This document shows positions 5,181-19,828 of a stretch of DNA of 32,000 nt, one piece after another; the stretch's first letter is position 1, and the number at the start of each line of letters is the position of its first letter. Source of the stretch: Tenebrionibacter intestinalis. GTDB taxonomy: Bacteria > Pseudomonadota > Gammaproteobacteria > Enterobacterales > Enterobacteriaceae. A program made the position numbers and the translations under genes. The stretch is taken from contig NZ_JAEPBH010000028.1 of assembly GCF_016632365.1 (NCBI RefSeq), positions 7,375 through 39,374 of the forward strand, in the 5' to 3' direction. The notes under the pieces are model-generated. The model made no database searches. It was not told the DNA's origin and saw only the letters and a program-made list of their open reading frames with translations.

Positions 5181-5305
5181 ATAAGAAGCGACATTGTTTT
5201 TAACTGCCATATCGCAGGTAGAAAATGGTGGTCATTCTGGTGGTCTTGACAAAACTGGACTTTTAATTTAGCTTAATCTTCAGCCAGTTAATGGCAAAGG
5301 CGATC

Positions 5306-5322
5306 CCAGTCAGAGGAGCCAA
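5306..5322 (+). repeat. 17-nt direct repeat of the tRNA-Asn 3' end (island att remnant)
   Basis: CCAGTCAGAGGAGCCAA is identical to 6077-6093 of the complete tRNA-Asn. Its first 16 nt also match the two other tRNA-Asn copies. Confidence 0.85.
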
Positions 5323-5486
5323 ATTTCCGTTTTTACGCGCTCAGGCGAATCGCTATATGTTTTTGATTCAAAGAGTTAGCGTAAAGACCCTTCCGATGTG
5401 TATCTGTTTATTCTCTGCGCCAGGCAAAATTGGTGGTCTGTTTTAGGATCATTTCAGTTTGTTCCTGAAGTCACCGCCATATATCC

Positions 5487-5700
5487 CTTTCCGACGTAAA
5501 AATCCACAACCGCAAGCCTTCTGATATCTCAGTTATCGCTTCAACCAAAAAGAAACCCGTAACGCATCAGGCGCATATCCGCAGGTTTCGCTTTACTACT
5601 GGCGCAGAATATCAACCCCGCGCAGCAAGGTATGGGTATGAGCGAAAATTACTGACGCGGATTTACGGCCACGCGCTGGCGAAGGGGCTTACGGGTTAAC
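5487..5700 (+). pseudogene. Decayed N-terminal remnant of a P4-type integrase (lineage 1), frameshifted and internally deleted
   Basis: Translates in shifting frames as LSDVKIHNRKPSD / YRFNQKETR..GAYPQVSL / ..ERKLLT... This is the N-terminal arm-binding pattern of P4-like integrases. The nucleotide sequence is paralogous to 6212-6436. No intact ORF of 60 aa or more is present. Confidence 0.6.
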
Positions 5701-6016: not shown

Positions 6017-6092
6017 TCCTCTGTAGTTCAGTCGGTAGAACGGCGGACTGTTAATCCGTATGTCACTGGTTCGAGTCCAGTCAGAGGAGCCA
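6017..6092 (+). tRNA. tRNA-Asn (anticodon GUU)
   Basis: 76 nt, TCCTCTGTAGTTCAGTCGGTAGAACGGCGGACTGTTAATCCGTATGTCACTGGTTCGAGTCCAGTCAGAGGAGCCA. It matches the enterobacterial tRNA-Asn as I recall it, with anticodon loop CU-GUU-AA and an encoded CCA. Confidence 0.97.
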
Positions 6093-6436: not shown

Positions 6437-6465
6437 CGGATTATCCCGCTCGCGCGGGGGAATAC
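6437..6465 (-). CRISPR. Single degenerate type I-E repeat; the cas2-proximal array is reduced to one repeat and no spacers
   Basis: The minus strand reads GTATTCCCCCGCGCGAGCGGGATAATCCG, compared with GAGTTCCCCGCGCAAGCGGGGATAAACCC at 12897-12925. It lies 63 nt downstream of the cas2 stop. I found no second repeat at 61-62-nt periodicity in 6093-6436. Confidence 0.7.
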
Positions 6466-6528
6466 GCTAAAACATTTTTAACCCATCAGAAAGCCACCGG
6501 CATCCCCTTCTTTTTAAAAACAGATAAT
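6466..6528 (-). promoter_or_regulatory. CRISPR leader-like AT-rich segment between cas2 and the lone repeat
   Basis: 63-bp AT-rich sequence (..TTTTTAAAAAGAAGG..GGGTTAAAAATGTTTTAGC then the repeat, minus strand). It occupies the position of the type I-E leader. Confidence 0.5.
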
Positions 6529-10274: not shown

Positions 10275-10868
10275 TTAATTACCGGCCTTCATATATTCAC
10301 TGGCCCAGCGAATACGGTTGCGGGAGAAAGGATCGCTGCACTCAGGCTGATGTTCTTCCCTGGCCTGCCATTCGCGCATCCAAAGAAAAATGCCGTCTGC
10401 CAGTGAAACAATATTTACGCCTTCTTTGCCGCGCAGCTTGACTGCGCGAACAAGCTGCCGGCAAAACTCGGCAGGCTCGCGAGTGTCCTGTAAGCGATCG
10501 AAACGCAGCGCTGACAGACATGCGCGGCCTTTAATATTTTCACCCAACTGAGCGGCAAAACTGCGCCCTGAAGTATTTTTATCGGCATGAGCGGCCGCAC
10601 AGACAAAGACCGCCAACGCGAGGCTATCAACGTGATTTAGCGGCATCACGCGTTCCAGCAGCCCCCTGAGCGTGTGATACCCTTCATACACCATGACGCC
10701 ATAAGGCGCTGCTGCGCGACGCAGCTCGGCTCGCCAGGCACGCCCGTTAATGCGCCTCTGGCCAATATGGGCATCCCTCTCCTGCAGCGCGTTAAACCAG
10801 GTGACCAGTATTTTTTTTGTATCATCGGATGTGAATACCCGTTCCCGGGCCGTATCGGTATTAAGCAT
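10275..10868 (-). CDS. cse2: Cse2 (CasB/Cas11e) small Cascade subunit
   Basis: 197 aa, Arg-rich and helical (RAELRRAA..). It lies between cas8e and cas7e with an 8-nt overlap with cas8e. The call rests on position and composition. Confidence 0.8.
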   Translation of the reverse strand: MLNTDTARERVFTSDDTKKILVTWFNALQERDAHIGQRRINGRAWRAELRRAAAPYGVMVYEGYHTLRGLLERVMPLNHVDSLALAVFVCAAAHADKNTSGRSFAAQLGENIKGRACLSALRFDRLQDTREPAEFCRQLVRAVKLRGKEGVNIVSLADGIFLWMREWQAREEHQPECSDPFSRNRIRWASEYMKAGN

Positions 10869-12426
10869 TCCCTCTCTCCTGCGGCTTTACCGCGAGTTCA
10901 GTAAAATCCTTGCGGACCTTCAGCTTCTGATATTCGCCCTCCAGCTTTTTTCTGGCGGCAAGCTGGCGACGCAAAATGGCGCTGTCGTCTTGCGAACCGG
11001 ATAACACCATGCCATCAAACATCATGAACATATGTTGCAGCAGGTAGGTCGGCCATTGCGCCATACGCCGCGACGTTTCGGGCTGCGCCTGCATGGGATC
11101 CTTTATCATGGCCGTTAGCAGCAGGCTGAATTGCGCTTGCGTCCCCTGCCACCAGGTGAGATCCCACATGCTGAAATCGCCAGGGGCATCGCCGCCTGCC
11201 GCGAAAAGCGCCGCTTTAAGGTGCTTTTTAAGCAAAGACAGTGCGGAGTTTGCCAGCTCTAGCGCAAGTTTGGCCTGCGCTTTCACTTGCTCTGGCTCAT
11301 CAGTGATAATCAGCGGCAGCCGGTGTTGATACCAACAGCGCGCCTTGGCGTTATCCATATCAAACCCAAAACACCAAAGGCGTGTTGCCGGCATTTTGCG
11401 GCGTTTTGACATCGCCGGGACCACAGCCGCAGGGCGGGTGAGGTTGAATTTATCTTCACTTTGCAGCGACAGCCCCAGCCAGTCTTTGTAACACAGCCCC
11501 CCCGGCTGCCCCTTAAGCGCAAGCCAGGGCGCAGCGCTGTCTTTTATGGACTGCCTGTGTGGCGACAGCGGGTGAACCCAGCCCTCATACTGGACGCCGT
11601 AGTTTTTCGTGCGTATTTCCCGCAGGCAGGCTTCACTATGCTCCCCGCACAGGTCACAGTTGCCCGCTTGTGTTGCAGAAAAATCGATTTCAATGCGCCT
11701 TGGCATCCCCCAGTACGCCTGCAGAGCGTGCGCATTGTCCGGCGTCACGCTGTTGCCTGGCCGCTCGCTGGTGCGGGTTGCGGTAAGCCAGGGGAAAATC
11801 AGCGGTAGCTGCGCCTGCTCAACCTGCGGCTGGCCTGACATCACGTTCAGCCAGAGCTTTTTCCACAGCGGCAGGGTGTTATCTTCAGGTACGATAAGCG
11901 TCGTCAGCGGGCCGCCGCCGCGCATTCCAACGCGATAGCCTGCGCCGCCGGCGGGTGAATTGGTCTGCACGGTAAAAAGCGCGATAGCCGCGCAGTGCGG
12001 GCACATGCGTTGACAGGCGCTGCGCTTAATGAAGTGATCTTTATTGAGCTTGAGCGTATTGCCGCCGGGCGCATCGATTAGCAGCCCGGCAATGGTGCTG
12101 TTTTCCCCCTCAAGCGGTTCATGACTTTGCAAAAAAGCGGGCTTCTGCGGGCCAAACTGCATCGCGGGCGCCACCACAGAAAGCGCCTGTCGCCACGCAT
12201 CCTGCGCCATACCGTCATACCAGACAGCGCGCCATGCCGCTTCATTTTCCGGCCCCGCCGCCGTTTGCAGCAGCCCGATAAGAAACTGCCAGGCGCCGTT
12301 TTGAAAATCAGGCCGTGGATACGCCAGATCGAGAATATCCTCATCCCACAGCGCCAGCGGCGATATTTTTTTTTGCTGGCGCGTGGCGGTGACAACCGGC
12401 AACCAGCTTTCCGTGATTAAATCCAT
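10861..12426 (-). CDS. cas8e: Cse1 (CasA/Cas8e) large Cascade subunit
   Basis: 521 aa. The N-terminus MDLITESWLPV resembles CasA MNLLIDNWIPV. A Cys cluster CPHCAAIALF..CDLCG is present. An AGGAG Shine-Dalgarno sits at 12436-12432. Confidence 0.9.
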   Translation of the reverse strand: MDLITESWLPVVTATRQQKKISPLALWDEDILDLAYPRPDFQNGAWQFLIGLLQTAAGPENEAAWRAVWYDGMAQDAWRQALSVVAPAMQFGPQKPAFLQSHEPLEGENSTIAGLLIDAPGGNTLKLNKDHFIKRSACQRMCPHCAAIALFTVQTNSPAGGAGYRVGMRGGGPLTTLIVPEDNTLPLWKKLWLNVMSGQPQVEQAQLPLIFPWLTATRTSERPGNSVTPDNAHALQAYWGMPRRIEIDFSATQAGNCDLCGEHSEACLREIRTKNYGVQYEGWVHPLSPHRQSIKDSAAPWLALKGQPGGLCYKDWLGLSLQSEDKFNLTRPAAVVPAMSKRRKMPATRLWCFGFDMDNAKARCWYQHRLPLIITDEPEQVKAQAKLALELANSALSLLKKHLKAALFAAGGDAPGDFSMWDLTWWQGTQAQFSLLLTAMIKDPMQAQPETSRRMAQWPTYLLQHMFMMFDGMVLSGSQDDSAILRRQLAARKKLEGEYQKLKVRKDFTELAVKPQERGNA

Positions 12427-12439
12427 TTTTACTCCTGTG

Positions 12440-12464
12440 AAAACCCGCCCCTTCCGAGGCGGGT
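12440..12464 (-). terminator. Intrinsic terminator/attenuator immediately upstream of the cas8e ribosome-binding site
   Basis: The minus strand reads CCCGCCUC-GGAA-GGGGCGGG, an 8-bp GC-rich stem with a GNRA tetraloop. UUUU (12443-12440) follows, and only 3 nt separate it from the AGGAG SD of cas8e. Confidence 0.6.
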
Positions 12465-12468
12465 ATTG

Positions 12469-12549
12469 TTAAGAGCGCCTTATCTGCATAAAAAGGAGGC
12501 TCAACGCAAGCACAAGAAACTGATAATCAAAACTCATGACTATTGTCAT
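12469..12549 (-). CDS. Candidate small hydrophobic peptide (26 aa), possible type-I-like/CreT-like toxin
   Basis: ATG at 12549, TAA at 12471-12469. Peptide MTIVMSFDYQFLVLALSLLFMQIRRS has a hydrophobic core and a basic tail. It starts 10 nt after the stop of the upstream 41-aa ORF and ends 4-5 nt before the terminator stem. There is no strong SD and no homology evidence. Confidence 0.3.
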   Translation of the reverse strand: MTIVMSFDYQFLVLALSLLFMQIRRS

Positions 12550-12559
12550 CAATAATTAC

Positions 12560-12685
12560 TCACAGGTATTGCCGGAACCCTGAGCGCGCCTTAGAATGCA
12601 GTTGCTTACACCACTCCTGAGGCCGCGCACATCTCCGATGGAACGGCCTTATGGAGTTCCATCGTTGGACATACAATATACGCAT
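12560..12685 (-). CDS. Candidate 41-aa basic leader/toxin ORF rich in rare Arg/Ile codons
   Basis: ATG at 12685, TGA at 12562-12560. Peptide MRILYVQRWNSIRPFHRRCARPQEWCKQLHSKARSGFRQYL. Codons include ATA x2, AGG, AGA, CGG x3 and CGA. It begins about 15 nt from the predicted TSS. No clear SD. Confidence 0.2.
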   Translation of the reverse strand: MRILYVQRWNSIRPFHRRCARPQEWCKQLHSKARSGFRQYL

Positions 12686-12706
12686 CCGAATACGGGCGCA
12701 AACAAA

Positions 12707-12735
12707 TTAATAAGTTAAACATCTTATATTTGCAA
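12707..12735 (-). promoter_or_regulatory. Predicted sigma70 promoter firing toward the small ORFs and cas8e
   Basis: Minus strand: TTGCAA (12735-12730), 17 nt, TATTAA (12712-12707). A T8 tract lies upstream of the -35. Predicted TSS is near 12700. Confidence 0.45.
12712..12729 (+). promoter_or_regulatory. PAM-flanked partial protospacer matching the mini-CRISPR pseudo-spacer (predicted Cascade binding/operator site)
   Basis: AAG|TTAAACATCTTATAT is an AAG PAM followed by identity to pseudo-spacer nt 1-5, 7-11 and 13-15. Mismatches fall only at positions 6 and 12. The match lies exactly between the -10 and -35 of the minus-strand promoter. Confidence 0.55.
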
Positions 12736-12795
12736 AAAAAAGCTTTATAGAACACATAAAGAACCTATAAAATATTTATAGAAAAATCCGGTTTA

Positions 12796-12824
12796 TTGCC
12801 TCATCGCAGACATACCGCTATACT
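12796..12824 (+). promoter_or_regulatory. Predicted sigma70 promoter of the mini-CRISPR
   Basis: TTGCCT (12796-12801), 17 nt, TATACT (12819-12824). The predicted TSS at about 12831-12833 is right at the first repeat. Confidence 0.5.
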
Positions 12825-12834
12825 TAGCCGCGAT

Positions 12835-12925
12835 AATTTCCCCGCGCGAGCGGGGATGAACCGTTAAAAATCTTTTATAGATTTTTATAAATTATCGAGT
12901 TCCCCGCGCAAGCGGGGATAAACCC
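12835..12925 (+). CRISPR. Mini-CRISPR: degenerate repeat, 33-nt pseudo-spacer, degenerate repeat, antisense to the cas genes (CreA/CreR-like)
   Basis: Repeat 1 is AATTTCCCCGCGCGAGCGGGGATGAACCG (12835-12863). The spacer is TTAAAAATCTTTTATAGATTTTTATAAATTATC (12864-12896). Repeat 2 is GAGTTCCCCGCGCAAGCGGGGATAAACCC (12897-12925). The Cas6e hairpin stem CCCCGC/GCGGGG is intact in both repeats. Confidence 0.85.
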
Positions 12926-12935
12926 GGCGCGCTCC

Positions 12936-15701
12936 CTAACCTTCGTTCCCCACCAGCCCATACTGCGCGCTGTAATAACCGGTATTGCTGGCTTCGCTAA
13001 CCAGCAACACCTGGGCCGTATGGCGCCGCATCGTGGTTCTGAATGCGGCCAGCGCCTCCTGCGGCGGCAGCGCAAACTGGCGGCTGTGCTTTTTCCACCA
13101 CGTTTCCCGCACCTGAAGCCGGCTCATCTCCCAGCTAAATTCGCCTTCATCGGCATACGGGCGCAGCCCTGACTCCCCATCCGGGTATGCGAGGAAAACC
13201 TCAACGCCCTCCTCGCTCAGGCGCGTTGAAATATCTTTAGCATCATCCCACATATAATCGCTGGCGCTGCGGTCATAACCTCTATCGCGCACAAGTAAAT
13301 TATTTTTTGCCGCCGCCCGCTGGCTTAACTGCAGCCCCAGCGCCTCATCGGCGTTGCGCTCCAGCCCGGGGGGAACCGGCTCGTCCTCCCCATATACTCC
13401 CTCAACCAGCCTGCGAGCGTCGTCTGGCATGCGTATAGCGCTCAGTTCGCGCAAAAGGCGCTGCGTGCGCCACAGGCAGACGTGATCGGCATAAACATAA
13501 CCGGTGCCGCGCAGCGCTTCCCCCAGCCAGCCGGGGTGCGGCTCGGGCTGCCATTCTGGCGCAAGCACATGCAGAACCGGTTGCGCCCGGTCATCTGCCT
13601 GCGGTGGCGGGTTGTCACCGGGCAACGGTATTTTGAGGTCGCCTCTGGCAGTGCGAATATGGCGCTGTAGACGCCCCGCGCGCTGAATCAGTAAATCGAC
13701 GGGGGCCAGATCGGTCAGCATATTATCAACGTCAATATCCAGGCTCTGCTCTATAACCTGGGTCGCGATAAGTACTTTCCCTCTACGCAACTGCGCGCTT
13801 GAGGCCTTACCAAACTGATGCAGCGCCTGGTTTTCAATATTCAGGCGGTCGGCAAACGCAAAGCGACTGTGGAACAACAGCAGATTATCGGCGGGTATCA
13901 CCCCCTCATCCAGCAGCCGACGGTAGACGGCAATCGCGTCATCAACGGTGTTACGTATCCAGCAAACGCTCTCGCCTGCCGCCGCTGCCCGGTAAATCAG
14001 CGCAATGCCTTCATCCACACAGCTAAACCAGCCCACGCTAACGTGGCGCGCCACTGCTTTACGGGTATCAAGCTTTTTTTCTTCTAAAGCCGCGGACGTC
14101 AGGCGGGTAAACCAGGGGTAGCCTGCCTGTGGGCTGGGCTGCGGTTGTACAAATCCGGCCCCTGCGGCAAACGCGGCAAGCAGCCTTTCGCGCAGCGCAT
14201 AGTGCAGCGTAGCGCTGAGAATAATGACGCTGCCGCCCTGCGCCGCATGGAAAAAAAGCAGCCCTTCGAGTAACCGCACCATGTAGCCGTCGTAGGCGTG
14301 AACCTCATCAAGCAGCAAAATTTTATCGCGCATCCCGAGCAGGCGCAGTGACTGATGGCAAAACGGCATTACCGCCATCAGCAGTTGATCGAGCGTTCCA
14401 ACCCCTACTTCAGCCAGCAGCGCTTTTTTACGCGAGTCGGCAAACCACGCGCTGCATTCGCTGCCCGCGCCCGGCTCATCTGCGGTATAGTGCTCCGGCG
14501 CACGCTGCTCGCTGTGCCAGACAGAATCACGAAACTGCATCGACATCTGCCGACCACCGTGCGCCAGCACCAGTGAAGGGCGCTGCCCAATTTCAAAGAG
14601 CGCGCGGTAAGCTTCGGCCAGACGCGCATACATCGCATTTGCAGTCGCCATTGTCGGCAGCCCGACATACAGGCCGCGTCCCTTGCCCGCAGACATCATC
14701 CTGTGCGCCAGTATCATCGCAGCCTCGGTTTTACCGGCGCCGGTCACATCCTCCAGCACCATAAGCTGTGGACCCGGCGCGCAGATATCCAGCGTCGCGG
14801 CATACTGTTGCAGCGGCGTAGGCTGGCGCAGAAACGGGAACATCGGCAAAAAACCGGGGTATTTACTGACCGCCGACGCCGGCGGAATAGCCGAAACGGC
14901 GGCCTGCGCGTTATTCAGCGCCTGCGCCCAGTACCCGGCAAGCGCAACGGGGCGGCCAGACCAGGGAAAACGTGTATTGTCAGAACCAAGCCAGTCGGCA
15001 AGGGTAACTGCGCCTGCCAGTTGCCAGCTATGCTGTTTAAGCGATTTCTGCCACTCAGCGTCTTTCCAGCATTCGGGCCAGTGGGTAAAGCCAAAAAGTT
15101 CGTTTAGCGCGGCGATGAAGGCATGGGCGGCGGCCATGTCCGACGGGTCAAAAGCCAGATGGCCTTCATGTTCTTTTATTTCCGGCGGTATACCGTGATG
15201 CCCGGTGCTTATCTGCATCCAGATATCCATAGCATCGAGGTATTCCTGCGCATCTCGCTCACTGCATGCCGGCAGCAGCCCTGTGTCGTCCTCCAGCCAC
15301 GATTCGCTCAACCTGTGCCAGAGAAAATAGCCCAGCGAATCGTGGCGGCAATAATATTTTTTCCCGGCCAGCGGCGCCACTAACACACCGTTACCGCAGG
15401 ACGCCAGCCCCTGAAACCCGCGCGCGAACTTGCCAATATCGTGCGTTGCCGCAAGCCAGCTAAACCAGCGTGCGCCCTCTTCGTCGCTAAACCCCAGAGC
15501 GATCAGCGTATCGGTAACGCCATATCGATTTTCCTTTACCATCTGGTGAGCACAGGCGGCAACATCAAGACAATGCCATACCAGTAGATGATACTCATCA
15601 CCATGATGGATTTTACCCGGCCGCGCTTTCCCCCAGTAACGGAAATAACCGGGAATATCATCAGGCCATTGCACAACAAACTTTTCCTTTTGTTTCCGCA
15701 A
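12936..15701 (-). CDS. cas3: Cas3 HD nuclease/helicase (type I-E)
   Basis: 921 aa. N-terminal HD domain (YWGKARP..HLLVWHCLDVAA..ATHDIGKF), Walker A VTGAGKTEAA, DEAH-like LLDEVHAYD, motif VI QRAGRLQRH. Confidence 0.95.
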   Translation of the reverse strand: MRKQKEKFVVQWPDDIPGYFRYWGKARPGKIHHGDEYHLLVWHCLDVAACAHQMVKENRYGVTDTLIALGFSDEEGARWFSWLAATHDIGKFARGFQGLASCGNGVLVAPLAGKKYYCRHDSLGYFLWHRLSESWLEDDTGLLPACSERDAQEYLDAMDIWMQISTGHHGIPPEIKEHEGHLAFDPSDMAAAHAFIAALNELFGFTHWPECWKDAEWQKSLKQHSWQLAGAVTLADWLGSDNTRFPWSGRPVALAGYWAQALNNAQAAVSAIPPASAVSKYPGFLPMFPFLRQPTPLQQYAATLDICAPGPQLMVLEDVTGAGKTEAAMILAHRMMSAGKGRGLYVGLPTMATANAMYARLAEAYRALFEIGQRPSLVLAHGGRQMSMQFRDSVWHSEQRAPEHYTADEPGAGSECSAWFADSRKKALLAEVGVGTLDQLLMAVMPFCHQSLRLLGMRDKILLLDEVHAYDGYMVRLLEGLLFFHAAQGGSVIILSATLHYALRERLLAAFAAGAGFVQPQPSPQAGYPWFTRLTSAALEEKKLDTRKAVARHVSVGWFSCVDEGIALIYRAAAAGESVCWIRNTVDDAIAVYRRLLDEGVIPADNLLLFHSRFAFADRLNIENQALHQFGKASSAQLRRGKVLIATQVIEQSLDIDVDNMLTDLAPVDLLIQRAGRLQRHIRTARGDLKIPLPGDNPPPQADDRAQPVLHVLAPEWQPEPHPGWLGEALRGTGYVYADHVCLWRTQRLLRELSAIRMPDDARRLVEGVYGEDEPVPPGLERNADEALGLQLSQRAAAKNNLLVRDRGYDRSASDYMWDDAKDISTRLSEEGVEVFLAYPDGESGLRPYADEGEFSWEMSRLQVRETWWKKHSRQFALPPQEALAAFRTTMRRHTAQVLLVSEASNTGYYSAQYGLVGNEG

Positions 15702-17685: not shown

Positions 17686-17761
17686 TCCTCTGTAGTTCAG
17701 TCGGTAGAACGGCGGACTGTTAATCCGTATGTCACTGGTTCGAGTCCAGTCAGAGGAGCCA
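17686..17761 (+). tRNA. asnW: tRNA-Asn (GUU)
   Basis: Identical 76-nt sequence to 6017-6092. The symbol is assigned from amn - tRNA - yeeO synteny with E. coli. Confidence 0.95.
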
Positions 17762-19752: not shown

Positions 19753-19828
19753 TCCTCTGTAGTTCAGTCGGTAGAACGGCGGACTGTTAATCCGTATGTC
19801 ACTGGTTCGAGTCCAGTCAGAGGAGCCA
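19753..19828 (+). tRNA. asnU: tRNA-Asn (GUU)
   Basis: Identical 76-nt sequence to the other two copies. The symbol is assigned from synteny (downstream of yeeO). Confidence 0.95.

What the first reader, a model, noticed from the sequence alone, without database searches (positions are those of the whole stretch)
12707..12925. Mini-CRISPR between cas3 and cas8e whose pseudo-spacer seed-matches, next to an AAG PAM, the core of a divergent promoter: CreTA/CreR-like Cascade self-regulation in a type I-E locus
SEEN: Two type I-E repeats lie on the + strand, antisense to every cas gene. They are 12835-12863 (AATTTCCCCGCGCGAGCGGGGATGAACCG) and 12897-12925 (GAGTTCCCCGCGCAAGCGGGGATAAACCC). They flank one 33-nt unit, TTAAAAATCTTTTATAGATTTTTATAAATTATC, which has only 3 G/C and contains the inverted repeat AAAAATC/GATTTTT. 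Degeneracy is confined to the 5' end of repeat 1 and the last base of repeat 2. Those are the parts discarded when Cas6e makes a mature crRNA; the 5' handle AUGAACCG and the 3' hairpin are preserved. A promoter TTGCCT-17-TATACT (12796-12824) would start transcription right at repeat 1. About 105 bp upstream, + strand 12712-12729 reads AAG|TTAAACATCTTATAT. This is the canonical I-E PAM followed by identity to pseudo-spacer positions 1-5, 7-11 and 13-15. The only mismatches in the first 15 nt are at positions 6 and 12, and positions 16-23 all mismatch. The 15-nt match fills the 17-nt spacer of a minus-strand promoter TTGCAA (12735-12730) / TATTAA (12712-12707) that fires toward cas8e. ESTABLISHED: In I-E Cascade every sixth guide base is flipped out and not read. 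PAM plus seed pairing gives binding, while extended pairing is needed to license Cas3. CreTA modules (first described in Haloarcula type I-B) and CreR RNAs are degenerate mini-CRISPRs in cas intergenic regions. They guide Cascade to repress a toxin promoter or a cas promoter through such partial matches. INFERENCE: This is an enterobacterial type I-E counterpart. Caveat: both sequences are very AT-rich, which raises the chance of spurious matches.
Basis: partly seen in the sequence, partly recalled or inferred. Interest (0 to 1): 0.92.

Follow-up and report, generated by a model that had tools for sequence, protein, structure and literature searches.

The report
Self-regulating mini-CRISPR in cas operon
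A two-repeat mini-CRISPR between cas3 and cas8e encodes a guide RNA that most likely steers the cell's own Cascade complex onto the Cascade promoter to hold its expression down; the match is real and conserved across many bacteria, but this kind of regulator (CreR) has already been described in Salmonella and E. coli type I-E systems.

Summary
Two type I-E repeats (12835-12863 and 12897-12925, + strand) flank a 33-nt pseudo-spacer. Its first 15 nt match an AAG-flanked site at 12712-12729, except at positions 6 and 12. That site is the only 13/13 match among 1064 AAG sites in the window, and no spacer shuffle out of 20000 reached it.

Comparison settles the interpretation. 49 of 129 related I-E loci carry the same arrangement, against 0-1 in each control. 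These loci give 36 different pseudo-spacers, and each matches its own AAG site. Mismatches concentrate at positions 6 (56%) and 12 (67%) and are absent at 1-5 and 7, which is the Cascade reading pattern.

One correction. The conserved promoter is TTTGCG(12702-12697)-16-TATATT(12680-12675).

The kind is already published: CreR was shown experimentally for Salmonella I-E, and mini-arrays were described for E. coli. This is a new member of a known kind.

Several features between the target and cas8e appear undescribed. They are a conserved, unannotated 26-codon ORF, a hairpin with compensatory base changes, a structured leader and a conserved antisense promoter. The window has no canonical array.

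The parts
12835..12863 (+). PsiR1: repeat-like sequence. The stem-loop CCCCGCGCGAGCGGGG is kept, the first 3 nt are degenerate, and the 8-nt 5' handle is ATGAACCG.
   Evidence: the same handle precedes the pseudo-spacer in relatives
12864..12896 (+). PsiS: 33-nt pseudo-spacer. Positions 1-15 carry the match to the target. Positions 2-10 and 16-24 form a 9-bp internal hairpin.
12897..12925 (+). PsiR2: repeat-like sequence with an intact hairpin and a last base C. It ends 10 nt before the cas3 stop codon.
12856..12917 (+). Predicted mature CreR-like RNA of 62 nt: 8-nt handle, 33-nt PsiS and 21-nt 3' hairpin. This assumes Cas6e cuts at the base of each hairpin.
   Evidence: Inference from the known Cas6e cleavage position in I-E repeats. 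Both hairpins fold in the precursor. cas6e is intact.
12796..12824 (+). Promoter-like TTGCCT-17-TATACT. It would start transcription about 4 nt before PsiR1.
   Evidence: promoters in the equivalent position in L005 and L006
12712..12714 (+). AAG PAM of the target
12715..12729 (+). Target (protospacer-like). It is identical to PsiS at positions 1-5, 7-11 and 13-15; positions 16-23 (12730-12737) all mismatch.
   Evidence: In L049 the only target-internal change is at position 12.
12675..12702 (-). Conserved sigma-70-like promoter facing cas8e: -35 TTTGCG (12702-12697), 16-nt spacer, -10 TATATT (12680-12675). Nine nt separate the -35 from the PAM. The predicted transcription start is near 12668.
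   Evidence: About 16 loci share this geometry, with 8-11 nt between the -35 and the PAM.
12707..12735 (-). It is a weak match and is not conserved in relatives.
12636..12664 (-). 9-bp hairpin (CGATGGAAC / GTTCCATCG) at the predicted 5' end of the cas8e-directed transcript
   Evidence: read; not tested for conservation
12569..12597 (+). Conserved antisense promoter-like element TTGCCG-17-TAGAAT. On the minus strand it reads as the conserved motif AACTGCATTCTAAG, which also lies in a small hairpin of the leader that is rich in G-U pairs.
12469..12549 (-). Conserved unannotated small ORF of 26 codons plus stop: MTIVMSFDYQFLVLALSLLFMQIRRS
12443..12464 (-). GC-rich hairpin between the small-ORF stop and the cas8e Shine-Dalgarno sequence, supported by compensatory base changes
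10861..12426 (-). cas8e (cse1/casA), the first Cascade gene. It is followed by cse2, cas7, cas5, cas6e, cas1 and cas2, down to 6529.
12936..15701 (-). cas3 (HD plus helicase)
6437..6465 (-). Lone degenerate repeat GTATTCCCCCGCGCGAGCGGGATAATCCG after the leader downstream of cas2. No spacers follow, so the window has no canonical array.

Best explanation
This is a type I-E CreR-type regulator, a degenerate two-repeat mini-CRISPR that makes Cascade repress its own operon.

Inferred steps: a promoter at 12796-12824 transcribes the mini-array on the + strand. Cas6e cuts at the base of the two repeat hairpins. The product is a roughly 62-nt crRNA-like RNA (12856-12917), which is loaded into Cascade.

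Shown by sequence and comparison: this RNA matches an AAG-flanked site at 12712-12729 over 13 of the 15 PAM-proximal positions. The two mismatches fall at positions 6 and 12, which Cascade does not read.

Inferred from established I-E biochemistry: pairing stops at position 15, so the R-loop cannot be completed and Cas3 is not licensed. Cascade therefore sits on the DNA without cutting it.

Shown by conservation of geometry: the PAM end of the bound complex faces the -35 hexamer of the conserved cas8e-directed promoter TTTGCG-16-TATATT (12702-12675), which lies 9 nt away.

Inferred, with experimental precedent in the Salmonella I-E CreR: this occludes RNA polymerase and lowers transcription of the unit that runs through a small ORF into cas8e-cse2-cas7-cas5-cas6e. 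The result is negative feedback on Cascade level. In loci that have arrays, canonical crRNAs or anti-CRISPRs would relieve the feedback by titrating Cascade away.
For: - Anatomy confirmed.
- The match is unique in 32 kb and was never reached in 20000 composition-matched shuffles.
- In 9 of 9 loci inspected by hand, the best match to the locus's own PsiS in 700 bp, with any PAM allowed, was AAG-flanked and on the same strand. Own-locus scores were 10-13 of 13; cross-locus scores were 4-10.
- An automated search found the arrangement (handle, then PsiS, with an AAG target 70-150 bp toward cas8e) in 49 of 129 loci. Controls gave 1 on the opposite strand, 0-1 in shuffles and 1 of 128 in coding sequence.
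- Over 36 distinct PsiS/target pairs, mismatches are 0% at positions 1-5 and 7, 6-11% at 8-11 and 13, but 56% at 6 and 67% at 12.
- Three close variant pairs were compared. In two the only difference is at position 6 or 12: window vs L049 at 12, and L059 vs L061 at 6. The third, L016 vs L068, differs at positions 6 and 13.
- A sense promoter sits 8-11 nt from the PAM in about 16 loci, or overlaps the PAM in more distant ones.
- All Cascade genes, cas6e and cas3 are intact.
- Precedent: S. enterica I-E CreR with an AAG PAM and a 15-nt match repressed PcasA about 8.6-fold in a complementarity-dependent way (10.1101/2023.03.10.532045). I-E mini-arrays with targets in the cas8 promoter are described in 10.1101/2023.03.03.530964. 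A 150-200-nt RNA from the 'anti-Pcas' promoter just downstream of cas3 was detected in E. coli K-12 (PMC7074321). Equating that promoter with the one ahead of the K-12 mini-array seen is my inference.
Against: - There are no expression, processing or binding data for this locus.
- All promoters are consensus matches only. The conserved sense promoter scores 8/12 here.
- The target lies upstream of the -35 rather than over the core promoter, so the strength of repression is uncertain.
- The window has no canonical array, so the proposed role of sensing crRNA abundance would be idle here.
- The AT-rich spacer region is probably also silenced by H-NS in an enterobacterium. This rests on general knowledge and was not tested.
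- A conserved small ORF and an antisense promoter lie between the target and cas8e, so the regulated unit is more than the cas genes alone.
Confidence: 0.85

Rival explanations
1. It is a CreTA/CrePA-like safeguard rather than pure autoregulation. The product that matters from the Cascade-repressed promoter would be the conserved 26-aa hydrophobic peptide (12549-12469). It would harm or arrest the cell when Cascade is lost or inhibited, with the conserved antisense promoter (12569-12597) supplying a type-I-antitoxin-like RNA.
For: - The small ORF is the first reading frame downstream of the target.
- A profile of the family hits only just upstream of cas8e, on the cas8e strand, in 23 loci (E from 4e-15 to 3e-3), and nothing comparable in six-frame translations of all loci.
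- Differences by codon position are 1137/590/1342, dN/dS is about 0.4, and the other two frames are closed in 13 of 14 sequences.
- It is hydrophobic, with GRAVY about 1.0-1.1.
- The antisense TTGnnn-17/18-TAnnnT promoter faces the leader, as in hok/sok-type modules.
- Toxin-antitoxin genes are reported as enriched between mini-arrays and cas genes.
Against: - There is no evidence of toxicity.
- The uninterrupted hydrophobic stretch is only about 12 residues, with a conserved polar N/S-H/Q-x-E motif. This is unlike typical type I toxins (my reading).
- L009 and L014 keep the ORF and the hairpin but were not found to have a mini-array/target pair. An unguarded toxin would be a problem.
- The ORF is frameshifted in S. 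houtenae while the CreR and its target are kept.
- No Pfam or NCBIfam family matches, and there is no KilA-N domain.
- There is no CreT-like run of rare Arg codons.
Confidence: 0.12
2. It is a decaying remnant of a CRISPR array, or an old self-targeting spacer, with no present function. The match to the nearby site would be a chance product of AT-rich sequence or of a local duplication.
For: Both sequences are AT-rich, with 3 G/C in 33 nt. The window's main array has itself decayed to one repeat. PsiS also resembles the leader end next to that repeat.
Against: - The shuffle test gave 0 of 20000.
- The arrangement recurs in 49 of 129 loci with 36 different spacers, and controls are at or below 1.
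- Similarity starts exactly at the handle/PAM boundary, and mismatches concentrate at positions 6 and 12. A duplication would not produce this.
- The position relative to the promoter is conserved.
Confidence: 0.02
3. The mini-array transcript acts mainly as a plain antisense RNA against the 3' end of cas3, or by transcriptional interference with read-through from cas3, without involving Cascade.
For: The mini-array is antisense to cas3 and ends 10 nt from its stop codon, and no terminator-like site was found in 12300-13100. A comparable idea was raised for the E. coli anti-Pcas RNA (PMC7074321).
Against: It does not explain the conserved AAG-flanked seed match, the mismatch pattern at positions 6 and 12, or the preserved handle and hairpin. 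In loci where cas3 is divergent (L016, S. houtenae) the element is kept although it cannot be antisense to cas3.
Confidence: 0.03

Closest known systems
CreR (Cas-regulating RNA) of the Salmonella enterica type I-E system (Liu et al., bioRxiv 10.1101/2023.03.10.532045; used again in 10.1101/2024.10.29.618823)
   Same: It is a degenerate two-repeat mini-CRISPR in the cas locus. PsiR1 keeps the 5' handle and PsiR2 keeps the 3' hairpin. The PAM is AAG, and the match of about 15 nt lies next to the predicted casA/cas8e promoter. A Salmonella locus of the same intergenic family as the window is seen in L132: the handle is ATGAACCG, the target is AAG|TAAGCAATCT..., and the TAGAAT motif and a remnant of the small ORF are present.
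   Different: In the published case, 15 consecutive nt match and the target is about 140 bp upstream of casA. Here the match is 13 of 15 with mismatches at positions 6 and 12, and the target is 286 bp upstream. A conserved small ORF, a hairpin and an antisense promoter lie in between. PsiS here is full length (33 nt), whereas most relatives have 15-22 nt. Function here is inferred, not measured.
Type I-E mini-array between cas3 and cas8 in E. coli (Shmakov et al., 10.1101/2023.03.03.530964 / PMC10120712, Fig. 4B); 'anti-Pcas' transcript of E. coli K-12
   Same: The position, the orientation antisense to casA, the AAG PAM and the seed match with a position-6 mismatch are the same. In K-12...GGGATAAACCG|TTATTGGTCTTATTATCG versus AAG|TTATTCGTTTTATTATT.
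   Different: K-12 belongs to the other Cas8e variant; NF007247 matches the window protein only weakly. In K-12 both repeats are far more degenerate, and the small-ORF family was not seen there.
CreTA (Haloarcula I-B and others) and CrePA (Acinetobacter I-F; 10.1101/2024.01.05.574328)
   Same: A crRNA-like RNA guides Cascade to repress a promoter through a partial match inside the cas locus.
   Different: In those systems the repressed gene is a toxin: an RNA that sequesters a rare tRNA, or a KilA-N protein. Here the first downstream gene is a 26-aa peptide of unknown effect, followed directly by the Cascade genes. No KilA-N domain or rare-codon CreT signature is present.

Membership tests
CreR / regulatory mini-array (crRNA-like RNA) | Two repeat-like sequences flanking one spacer-like sequence, inside or next to the cas operon | tested here: met
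   12835-12925, between cas3 and cas8e
CreR / regulatory mini-array (crRNA-like RNA) | The first repeat conserves the 5'-handle nucleotides and the second conserves the 3' hairpin | tested here: met
   PsiR1 ends in ATGAACCG. Both stems fold. The same asymmetry is seen in relatives.
CreR / regulatory mini-array (crRNA-like RNA) | PAM-flanked, seed-proximal partial match to a site at or next to a cas promoter | tested here: met
   AAG plus 13 of 15; unique in the window and 0 of 20000 shuffles; 9 nt from the -35 of a conserved promoter; spacer and target change together across loci
CreR / regulatory mini-array (crRNA-like RNA) | Complementarity too short to license cleavage of self DNA | tested here: met
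   Positions 16-23 all mismatch and 18 of 33 match overall. That this prevents Cas3 action is inferred from I-E biochemistry.
CreR / regulatory mini-array (crRNA-like RNA) | Transcribed and processed by Cas6; Cascade-dependent repression of the target promoter | not testable with these tools
   Only the promoter consensus, the fold and precedent in Salmonella
CreR (as distinct from CreA of CreTA) | No toxin gene under the repressed promoter | tested here: inconclusive
   A conserved 26-codon ORF lies between the target and cas8e. Its effect on the cell is unknown.
CreTA | Adjacent small RNA toxin (strong SD, start codon, rare Arg or other codons that sequester a tRNA) | tested here: not met
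   The small ORF has a single AGG, and Lys replaces it in many relatives. The window copy has a weak SD.
CrePA | KilA-N-domain protein toxin under CreA control | tested here: not met
   No Pfam or NCBIfam hit for the small ORF. There is no other ORF of 50 aa or more in the intergenic region.
Canonical type I-E CRISPR array | Leader plus repeats separated by invader-derived 32-33-nt spacers, transcribed in the same direction as the cas genes | tested here: not met
   It is antisense to cas. The single spacer matches the locus's own promoter region. In relatives the spacer is truncated to 15-22 nt. The place where the real array should be holds one degenerate repeat.
Type I toxin-antitoxin module (for the small ORF) | Small hydrophobic peptide gene with an overlapping antisense RNA gene | tested here: inconclusive
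   The ORF is real and hydrophobic, and a conserved antisense promoter is predicted. Against this, the hydrophobic run is short, the ORF persists in loci where no mini-array/target pair was found, and toxicity cannot be tested here.

The most novel reading that the evidence does not exclude
The CreR-guarded promoter does not drive cas8e directly. It drives a conserved, unannotated leader unit made of four parts: a structured 5' leader, a 26-aa hydrophobic peptide gene, a hairpin with compensatory base changes that starts 4-8 nt after the stop codon, and a conserved antisense promoter facing the leader. This unit could be an undescribed layer of I-E control. One version is a small membrane-peptide toxin, or type-I-TA-like module, released when Cascade is inhibited; that would be an I-E analogue of CreTA/CrePA. 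The other version is a leader-peptide attenuator that couples Cascade transcription to translation.
Probability: 0.2. Interest if true: 0.72.

Novelty: new member of a known kind. Interest (0 to 1): 0.4.

Why it matters
For this locus, the result explains how a type I-E system with no spacers of its own can keep a full set of cas genes at low cost. The only guide RNA found in the window directs Cascade onto its own promoter.

For the field, the main element adds nothing new in kind, because I-E CreR has already been demonstrated. The comparative set assembled here does give a clean natural read-out of Cascade's reading rule: 36 independent guide/target pairs, with mismatches tolerated almost only at positions 6 and 12. 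It also shows a fixed geometry, with the PAM facing the -35.

The conserved small ORF, hairpin and antisense promoter between the target and cas8e were not mentioned in the CreR and mini-array papers read here. Two targeted literature searches found nothing on them. They would change how the regulated unit is drawn, and they deserve a direct test.

Tried and rejected
- Rfam scan of 12300-13000 at a permissive threshold gave only sub-threshold noise and weak CRISPR-repeat hits.
- The intergenic region against E. coli genomes, phages and plasmids matched only CRISPR repeats. No phage or plasmid copy of this pseudo-spacer (a possible viral 'Cracr' mimic) was found.
- I could not name the organism. 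The window's Cas8e occurs only on unnamed JGI and Logan contigs, and the best species-representative relative is 70% identical (Enterobacteriaceae bacterium LSJC7).
- A long-range helix in the leader that I proposed by eye is not supported as aligned; only 50% of cells pair.
Pfam and NCBIfam gave nothing.
- CreT-type and KilA-N-type toxins were considered and rejected.
- Two literature searches for a small ORF or leader peptide upstream of cas8e/casA found nothing relevant.
Full report
**What is in the window.** The window carries a complete type I-E cas operon on the minus strand. The genes are cas3 (12936-15701), cas8e (10861-12426), cse2, cas7, cas5, cas6e, cas1 and cas2 (down to 6529). All have full-length matches to the I-E NCBIfam models. 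The operon lies among three tRNA-Asn genes, next to amn and a yeeO-like gene.

On the + strand there are two repeats at 12835-12863 and 12897-12925, with a 33-nt AT-rich unit between them. They are the only good I-E repeats in the 32 kb. No tandem repeat array was found anywhere in the window. Downstream of cas2, after a leader-like AT-rich stretch, there is one degenerate repeat (6437-6465, minus strand) and no spacer. The mini-array is therefore the only source of a crRNA-like guide that I found in this window.

**Is the match more than chance?** The site AAG|TTAAACATCTTATAT (12712-12729, + strand) agrees with pseudo-spacer positions 1-5, 7-11 and 13-15.
- Among all 1064 AAG sites on both strands of the window it is the only one scoring 13/13 at the positions Cascade reads. 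The next best scores 10/13.
- Shuffling the spacer 20000 times while keeping its composition never gave a 13/13 AAG-flanked match in the intergenic region. Twelve was reached 5 times.
- With any PAM allowed, nothing else in the window reaches 13/13 except the spacer itself.

**Comparative evidence.** I collected 46 loci from species-representative genomes, 4 near-identical contigs and 80 metagenomic loci, using Cas8e as the anchor. Inspection by eye of the closest loci that have a long cas3-cas8e spacer region showed the same layout. These loci are LSJC7, Pseudescherichia, an uncultured Enterobacter, Pluralibacter, Scandinavium, Citrobacter portucalensis, UBA5654 and Apirhabdus.
- The mini-array is antisense to cas8e.
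- Its first repeat keeps the handle AT(A/G)AACCG.
- Its second repeat keeps only the hairpin.

The pseudo-spacers are unrelated in sequence. Yet in 9 of 9 loci the best match to the locus's own pseudo-spacer within 700 bp, with any PAM allowed, is AAG-flanked, on the same strand and on the cas8e side. Own-locus scores were 10-13 of 13, against 4-10 when a spacer was tried on another locus.

An automated search for 'handle plus 15 nt' matching 'AAG plus 15 nt' found the arrangement in 49 of 129 loci. The controls gave 1 on the opposite strand, 0-1 after block shuffling and 1 of 128 in cas coding sequence. Gilliamella and many distant metagenomic I-E loci (Cas8e about 40% identical) are included.

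Over 36 non-redundant pairs the mismatch frequency is 0% at positions 1-5 and 7, and 6-11% at positions 8-11 and 13. It is 56% at position 6 and 67% at position 12. My filter left positions 6 and 12 free, so they could drift, and the point is that they did while their neighbours did not.

Close variants tell the same story. In L049, which encodes an identical Cas8e, the only change inside the target is at position 12. L059 and L061 differ at position 6. L016 and L068 differ at positions 6 and 13.

That promoter is weak, was not called by the scan and has no counterpart in relatives.

What is conserved is a sigma-70-like promoter whose -35 hexamer begins 8-11 nt from the PAM on the cas8e side:
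- window: TTTGCG(12702-12697)-16-TATATT(12680-12675)
- L005: TTGACC-17-TATGCT
- L006: TGGACA-17-TATTAT
- L052: TTGACC-17-TATGAT
- L075: TTGACA-17-TAGACT
- and others

In the distant loci the -35 overlaps the PAM itself, with a gap of -2 to 0. In every case the protospacer lies upstream of the -35 and the PAM end, where Cas8e sits, faces the promoter. I take this to be the Cascade operon promoter, with a predicted start near 12668. The space between the downstream hairpin and the cas8e start codon is too short for another promoter, and no other sense promoter is conserved.

**Mechanism.**
- Shown: the anatomy, the statistical uniqueness of the match, the joint variation of guide and target, the reading pattern, the conserved geometry and the intact cas6e and Cascade genes.
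- Inferred: transcription from TTGCCT-17-TATACT; Cas6e cleavage giving a 62-nt RNA (12856-12917), both of whose hairpins fold (z = -4.5); stable but non-cleaving binding, because pairing ends at position 15; and occlusion of the -35/UP region.

The inference has direct precedent. In S. enterica I-E, a CreR with an AAG PAM and a 15-nt match repressed a PcasA reporter about 8.6-fold. Repression was lost when complementarity was broken, and it was relieved by excess crRNA or by AcrIE8 (10.1101/2023.03.10.532045). Shmakov et al. described I-E mini-arrays between cas3 and cas8 with AAG-flanked targets in the cas8 promoter, and noted tolerated mismatches at position 6.

I could see the E. coli K-12 version directly: GGGATAAACCG|TTATTGGTCTT... 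versus AAG|TTATTCGTTTT.... A Salmonella houtenae version belongs to the same intergenic family as the window. A 150-200-nt RNA from the 'anti-Pcas' promoter just downstream of cas3 has been detected in K-12 (PMC7074321). I infer that this is the mini-array's promoter, but did not establish it.

**Comparison with known systems and novelty.** On every sequence-level criterion the element is a CreR-type mini-array. The expression and repression criteria cannot be tested here. It is not the first enterobacterial example, so I file it as a new member of a known kind.

Differences from the published Salmonella case:
- The match is interrupted at positions 6 and 12 rather than 15 consecutive nt.
- The target is 286 bp rather than about 140 bp from the start codon.
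- The pseudo-spacer is full length at 33 nt. Most relatives have 15 or 20-22 nt and one has 34, which is roughly steps of 6.
- There is no canonical array in the window.

**What else lies between the target and cas8e.** In 7 of the first 9 loci the target sits 286-298 nt from the cas8e ATG, which suggested conserved content. Alignment shows four features.

1. *A small ORF on the cas8e strand.* In the window it is 12549-12469, MTIVMSFDYQFLVLALSLLFMQIRRS. In relatives it reads, for example, MTISFVLNQPEMIMLFAFLLSGLKRL or MVVSFTLTHEEMMMLVAFLLYGLRRI.
   - A profile built from 11 copies hits only this position and strand, in 23 loci and the window (four of these contigs are near-identical to the window). 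Nothing comparable appears in six-frame translations of all loci.
   - Differences fall 1137/590/1342 on codon positions 1/2/3, dN/dS is about 0.4, and the other frames are closed in 13 of 14 sequences.
   - It has no Pfam or NCBIfam match.
2. *A GC-rich hairpin* starting 4-8 nt after the stop codon (window 12443-12464). It is 98% paired over 14 loci, and 7 of its 9 pairs show compensatory changes.
3. *A structured leader* with a small hairpin rich in G-U pairs, which points to a structure on the sense RNA.
4. *A conserved TTGnnn-17/18-TAnnnT promoter on the opposite strand* (window 12569-12597, TTGCCG-17-TAGAAT). It points back toward the target and the mini-array.

The ORF and hairpin persist in L009 and L014, where cas3 is divergent and no mini-array/target pair was found. 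The ORF carries a 1-nt frameshift in the S. houtenae draft, which keeps its CreR and target. I read this unit as a leader of the Cascade operon. Whether the peptide is a toxin, a regulatory leader peptide or something else is open. The short hydrophobic run, the conserved polar motif and the unguarded copies argue against a classical toxin.

**Verdict.** The kind is already known. The added value lies in the comparative read-out and in the leader unit, which the papers I read do not describe.

Noticed in passing
window 12469-12549 (-): Unannotated 26-codon ORF (MTIVMSFDYQFLVLALSLLFMQIRRS) between the CreR target and cas8e. The family is conserved in 23 I-E loci, always just upstream of cas8e on the same strand. 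It shows a coding substitution pattern and has no Pfam or NCBIfam match.
   Followed up: partly
window 12443-12464 (-): GC-rich hairpin 4 nt after the small-ORF stop and just before the cas8e Shine-Dalgarno sequence. Over 14 loci it is 98% paired, with compensatory changes in 7 of 9 pairs. Most copies have only a weak U tract, so it is not an obvious full terminator.
   Followed up: partly
window 12569-12597 (+): Conserved promoter-like TTGCCG-17-TAGAAT on the strand opposite to cas8e, about 55 nt upstream of the small-ORF start and pointing toward the target and the mini-array. About 10 of 14 relatives keep TTGnnn and TAnnnT at the same spacing. The same bases form a hairpin rich in G-U pairs in the sense leader.
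   Followed up: partly
window 6437-6465 (-) and 6466-6528: The position of the main array downstream of cas2 holds a leader-like AT-rich stretch and a single degenerate repeat (GTATTCCCCCGCGCGAGCGGGATAATCCG) with no spacer. The window therefore has intact cas genes but no canonical crRNA source.
   Followed up: partly
window 12865-12887 (+): The pseudo-spacer folds on itself. Positions 2-10 (TAAAAATCT) pair with 16-24 (AGATTTTTA), which would sequester the seed in free RNA (7 of 500 shuffles do as well). Similar hairpins complementary to the seed, ending at positions 22-24, occur in five unrelated distant loci (L077, L082, L084, L092, L127) in which no CCCC-type second repeat is seen in the 36 nt after the handle.
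   Followed up: partly
related loci L001-L130: Pseudo-spacer lengths fall into classes of about 15 (L008), 20-22 (L001, L005, L006, L007, L016, L039) and 33-34 nt (window, L044). The steps are roughly 6 nt, which is the Cas7 repeat length.
   Followed up: no
window 12856-12863; relatives: The handle of the first repeat is ATGAACCG rather than ATAAACCG in most enterobacterial copies, even where array repeats or the second repeat in the same locus have ATAAACCG (for example L007).
   Followed up: no
L007:3485-3620 (Pluralibacter gergoviae): This mini-array has three repeats. The truncated regulatory pseudo-spacer is followed by a canonical repeat and a normal-looking 32-nt spacer (CAGCAAAACCGCGCTGAGATTCTGGAGTTGCT).
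   Followed up: no
L039 (347 and 371 nt upstream of cas8e) and L025 (413 and 436 nt upstream): Two tandem AAG-flanked targets for one pseudo-spacer, 23-24 bp apart.
   Followed up: no
L132:6813-7252 (Salmonella enterica subsp. houtenae ATCC BAA-1581): cas3 is divergent from cse1, and a RelE/Xre toxin-antitoxin pair sits between cas3 and the mini-array. The small ORF has a 1-nt deletion in this draft, while the CreR and its target are intact. The record is filed in the phage collection although it is a chromosomal contig.
   Followed up: partly
window 6466-6481 (-): The last 16 nt of the leader next to the lone repeat (TTAAAAATGTTTTAGC) resemble the first 15 nt of the pseudo-spacer (TTAAAAATCTTTTAT). 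The flanking triplet is GGG, not a PAM. This may be coincidence or a trace of the element's origin.
   Followed up: no
window 12831-12838 and 12889-12896 (+): The 8 nt just upstream of the first repeat's stem (CGATAATT) are complementary to the last 8 nt of the pseudo-spacer (AATTATCG). In the predicted fold they enclose the first hairpin and the seed.
   Followed up: no
window 6017-6092, 17686-17761, 19753-19828 (+); about 5300-5335: Three tRNA-Asn genes flank the cas island and the amn/yeeO region. A partial copy of the tRNA 3' end (TGGCTCCTCTGACTGG) and a repeated segment of about 300 nt lie near 5300-5640, which suggests past integration events at the asn tRNA genes.
   Followed up: no
L049 vs window 12726, 12730, about 12740: Across about 560 aligned bases of a contig encoding an identical Cas8e, three of the four differences cluster at the target: position 12 of the protospacer, position 16, and a 1-nt insertion in the A run. 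The fourth lies in the cas3 3' end.
   Followed up: partly
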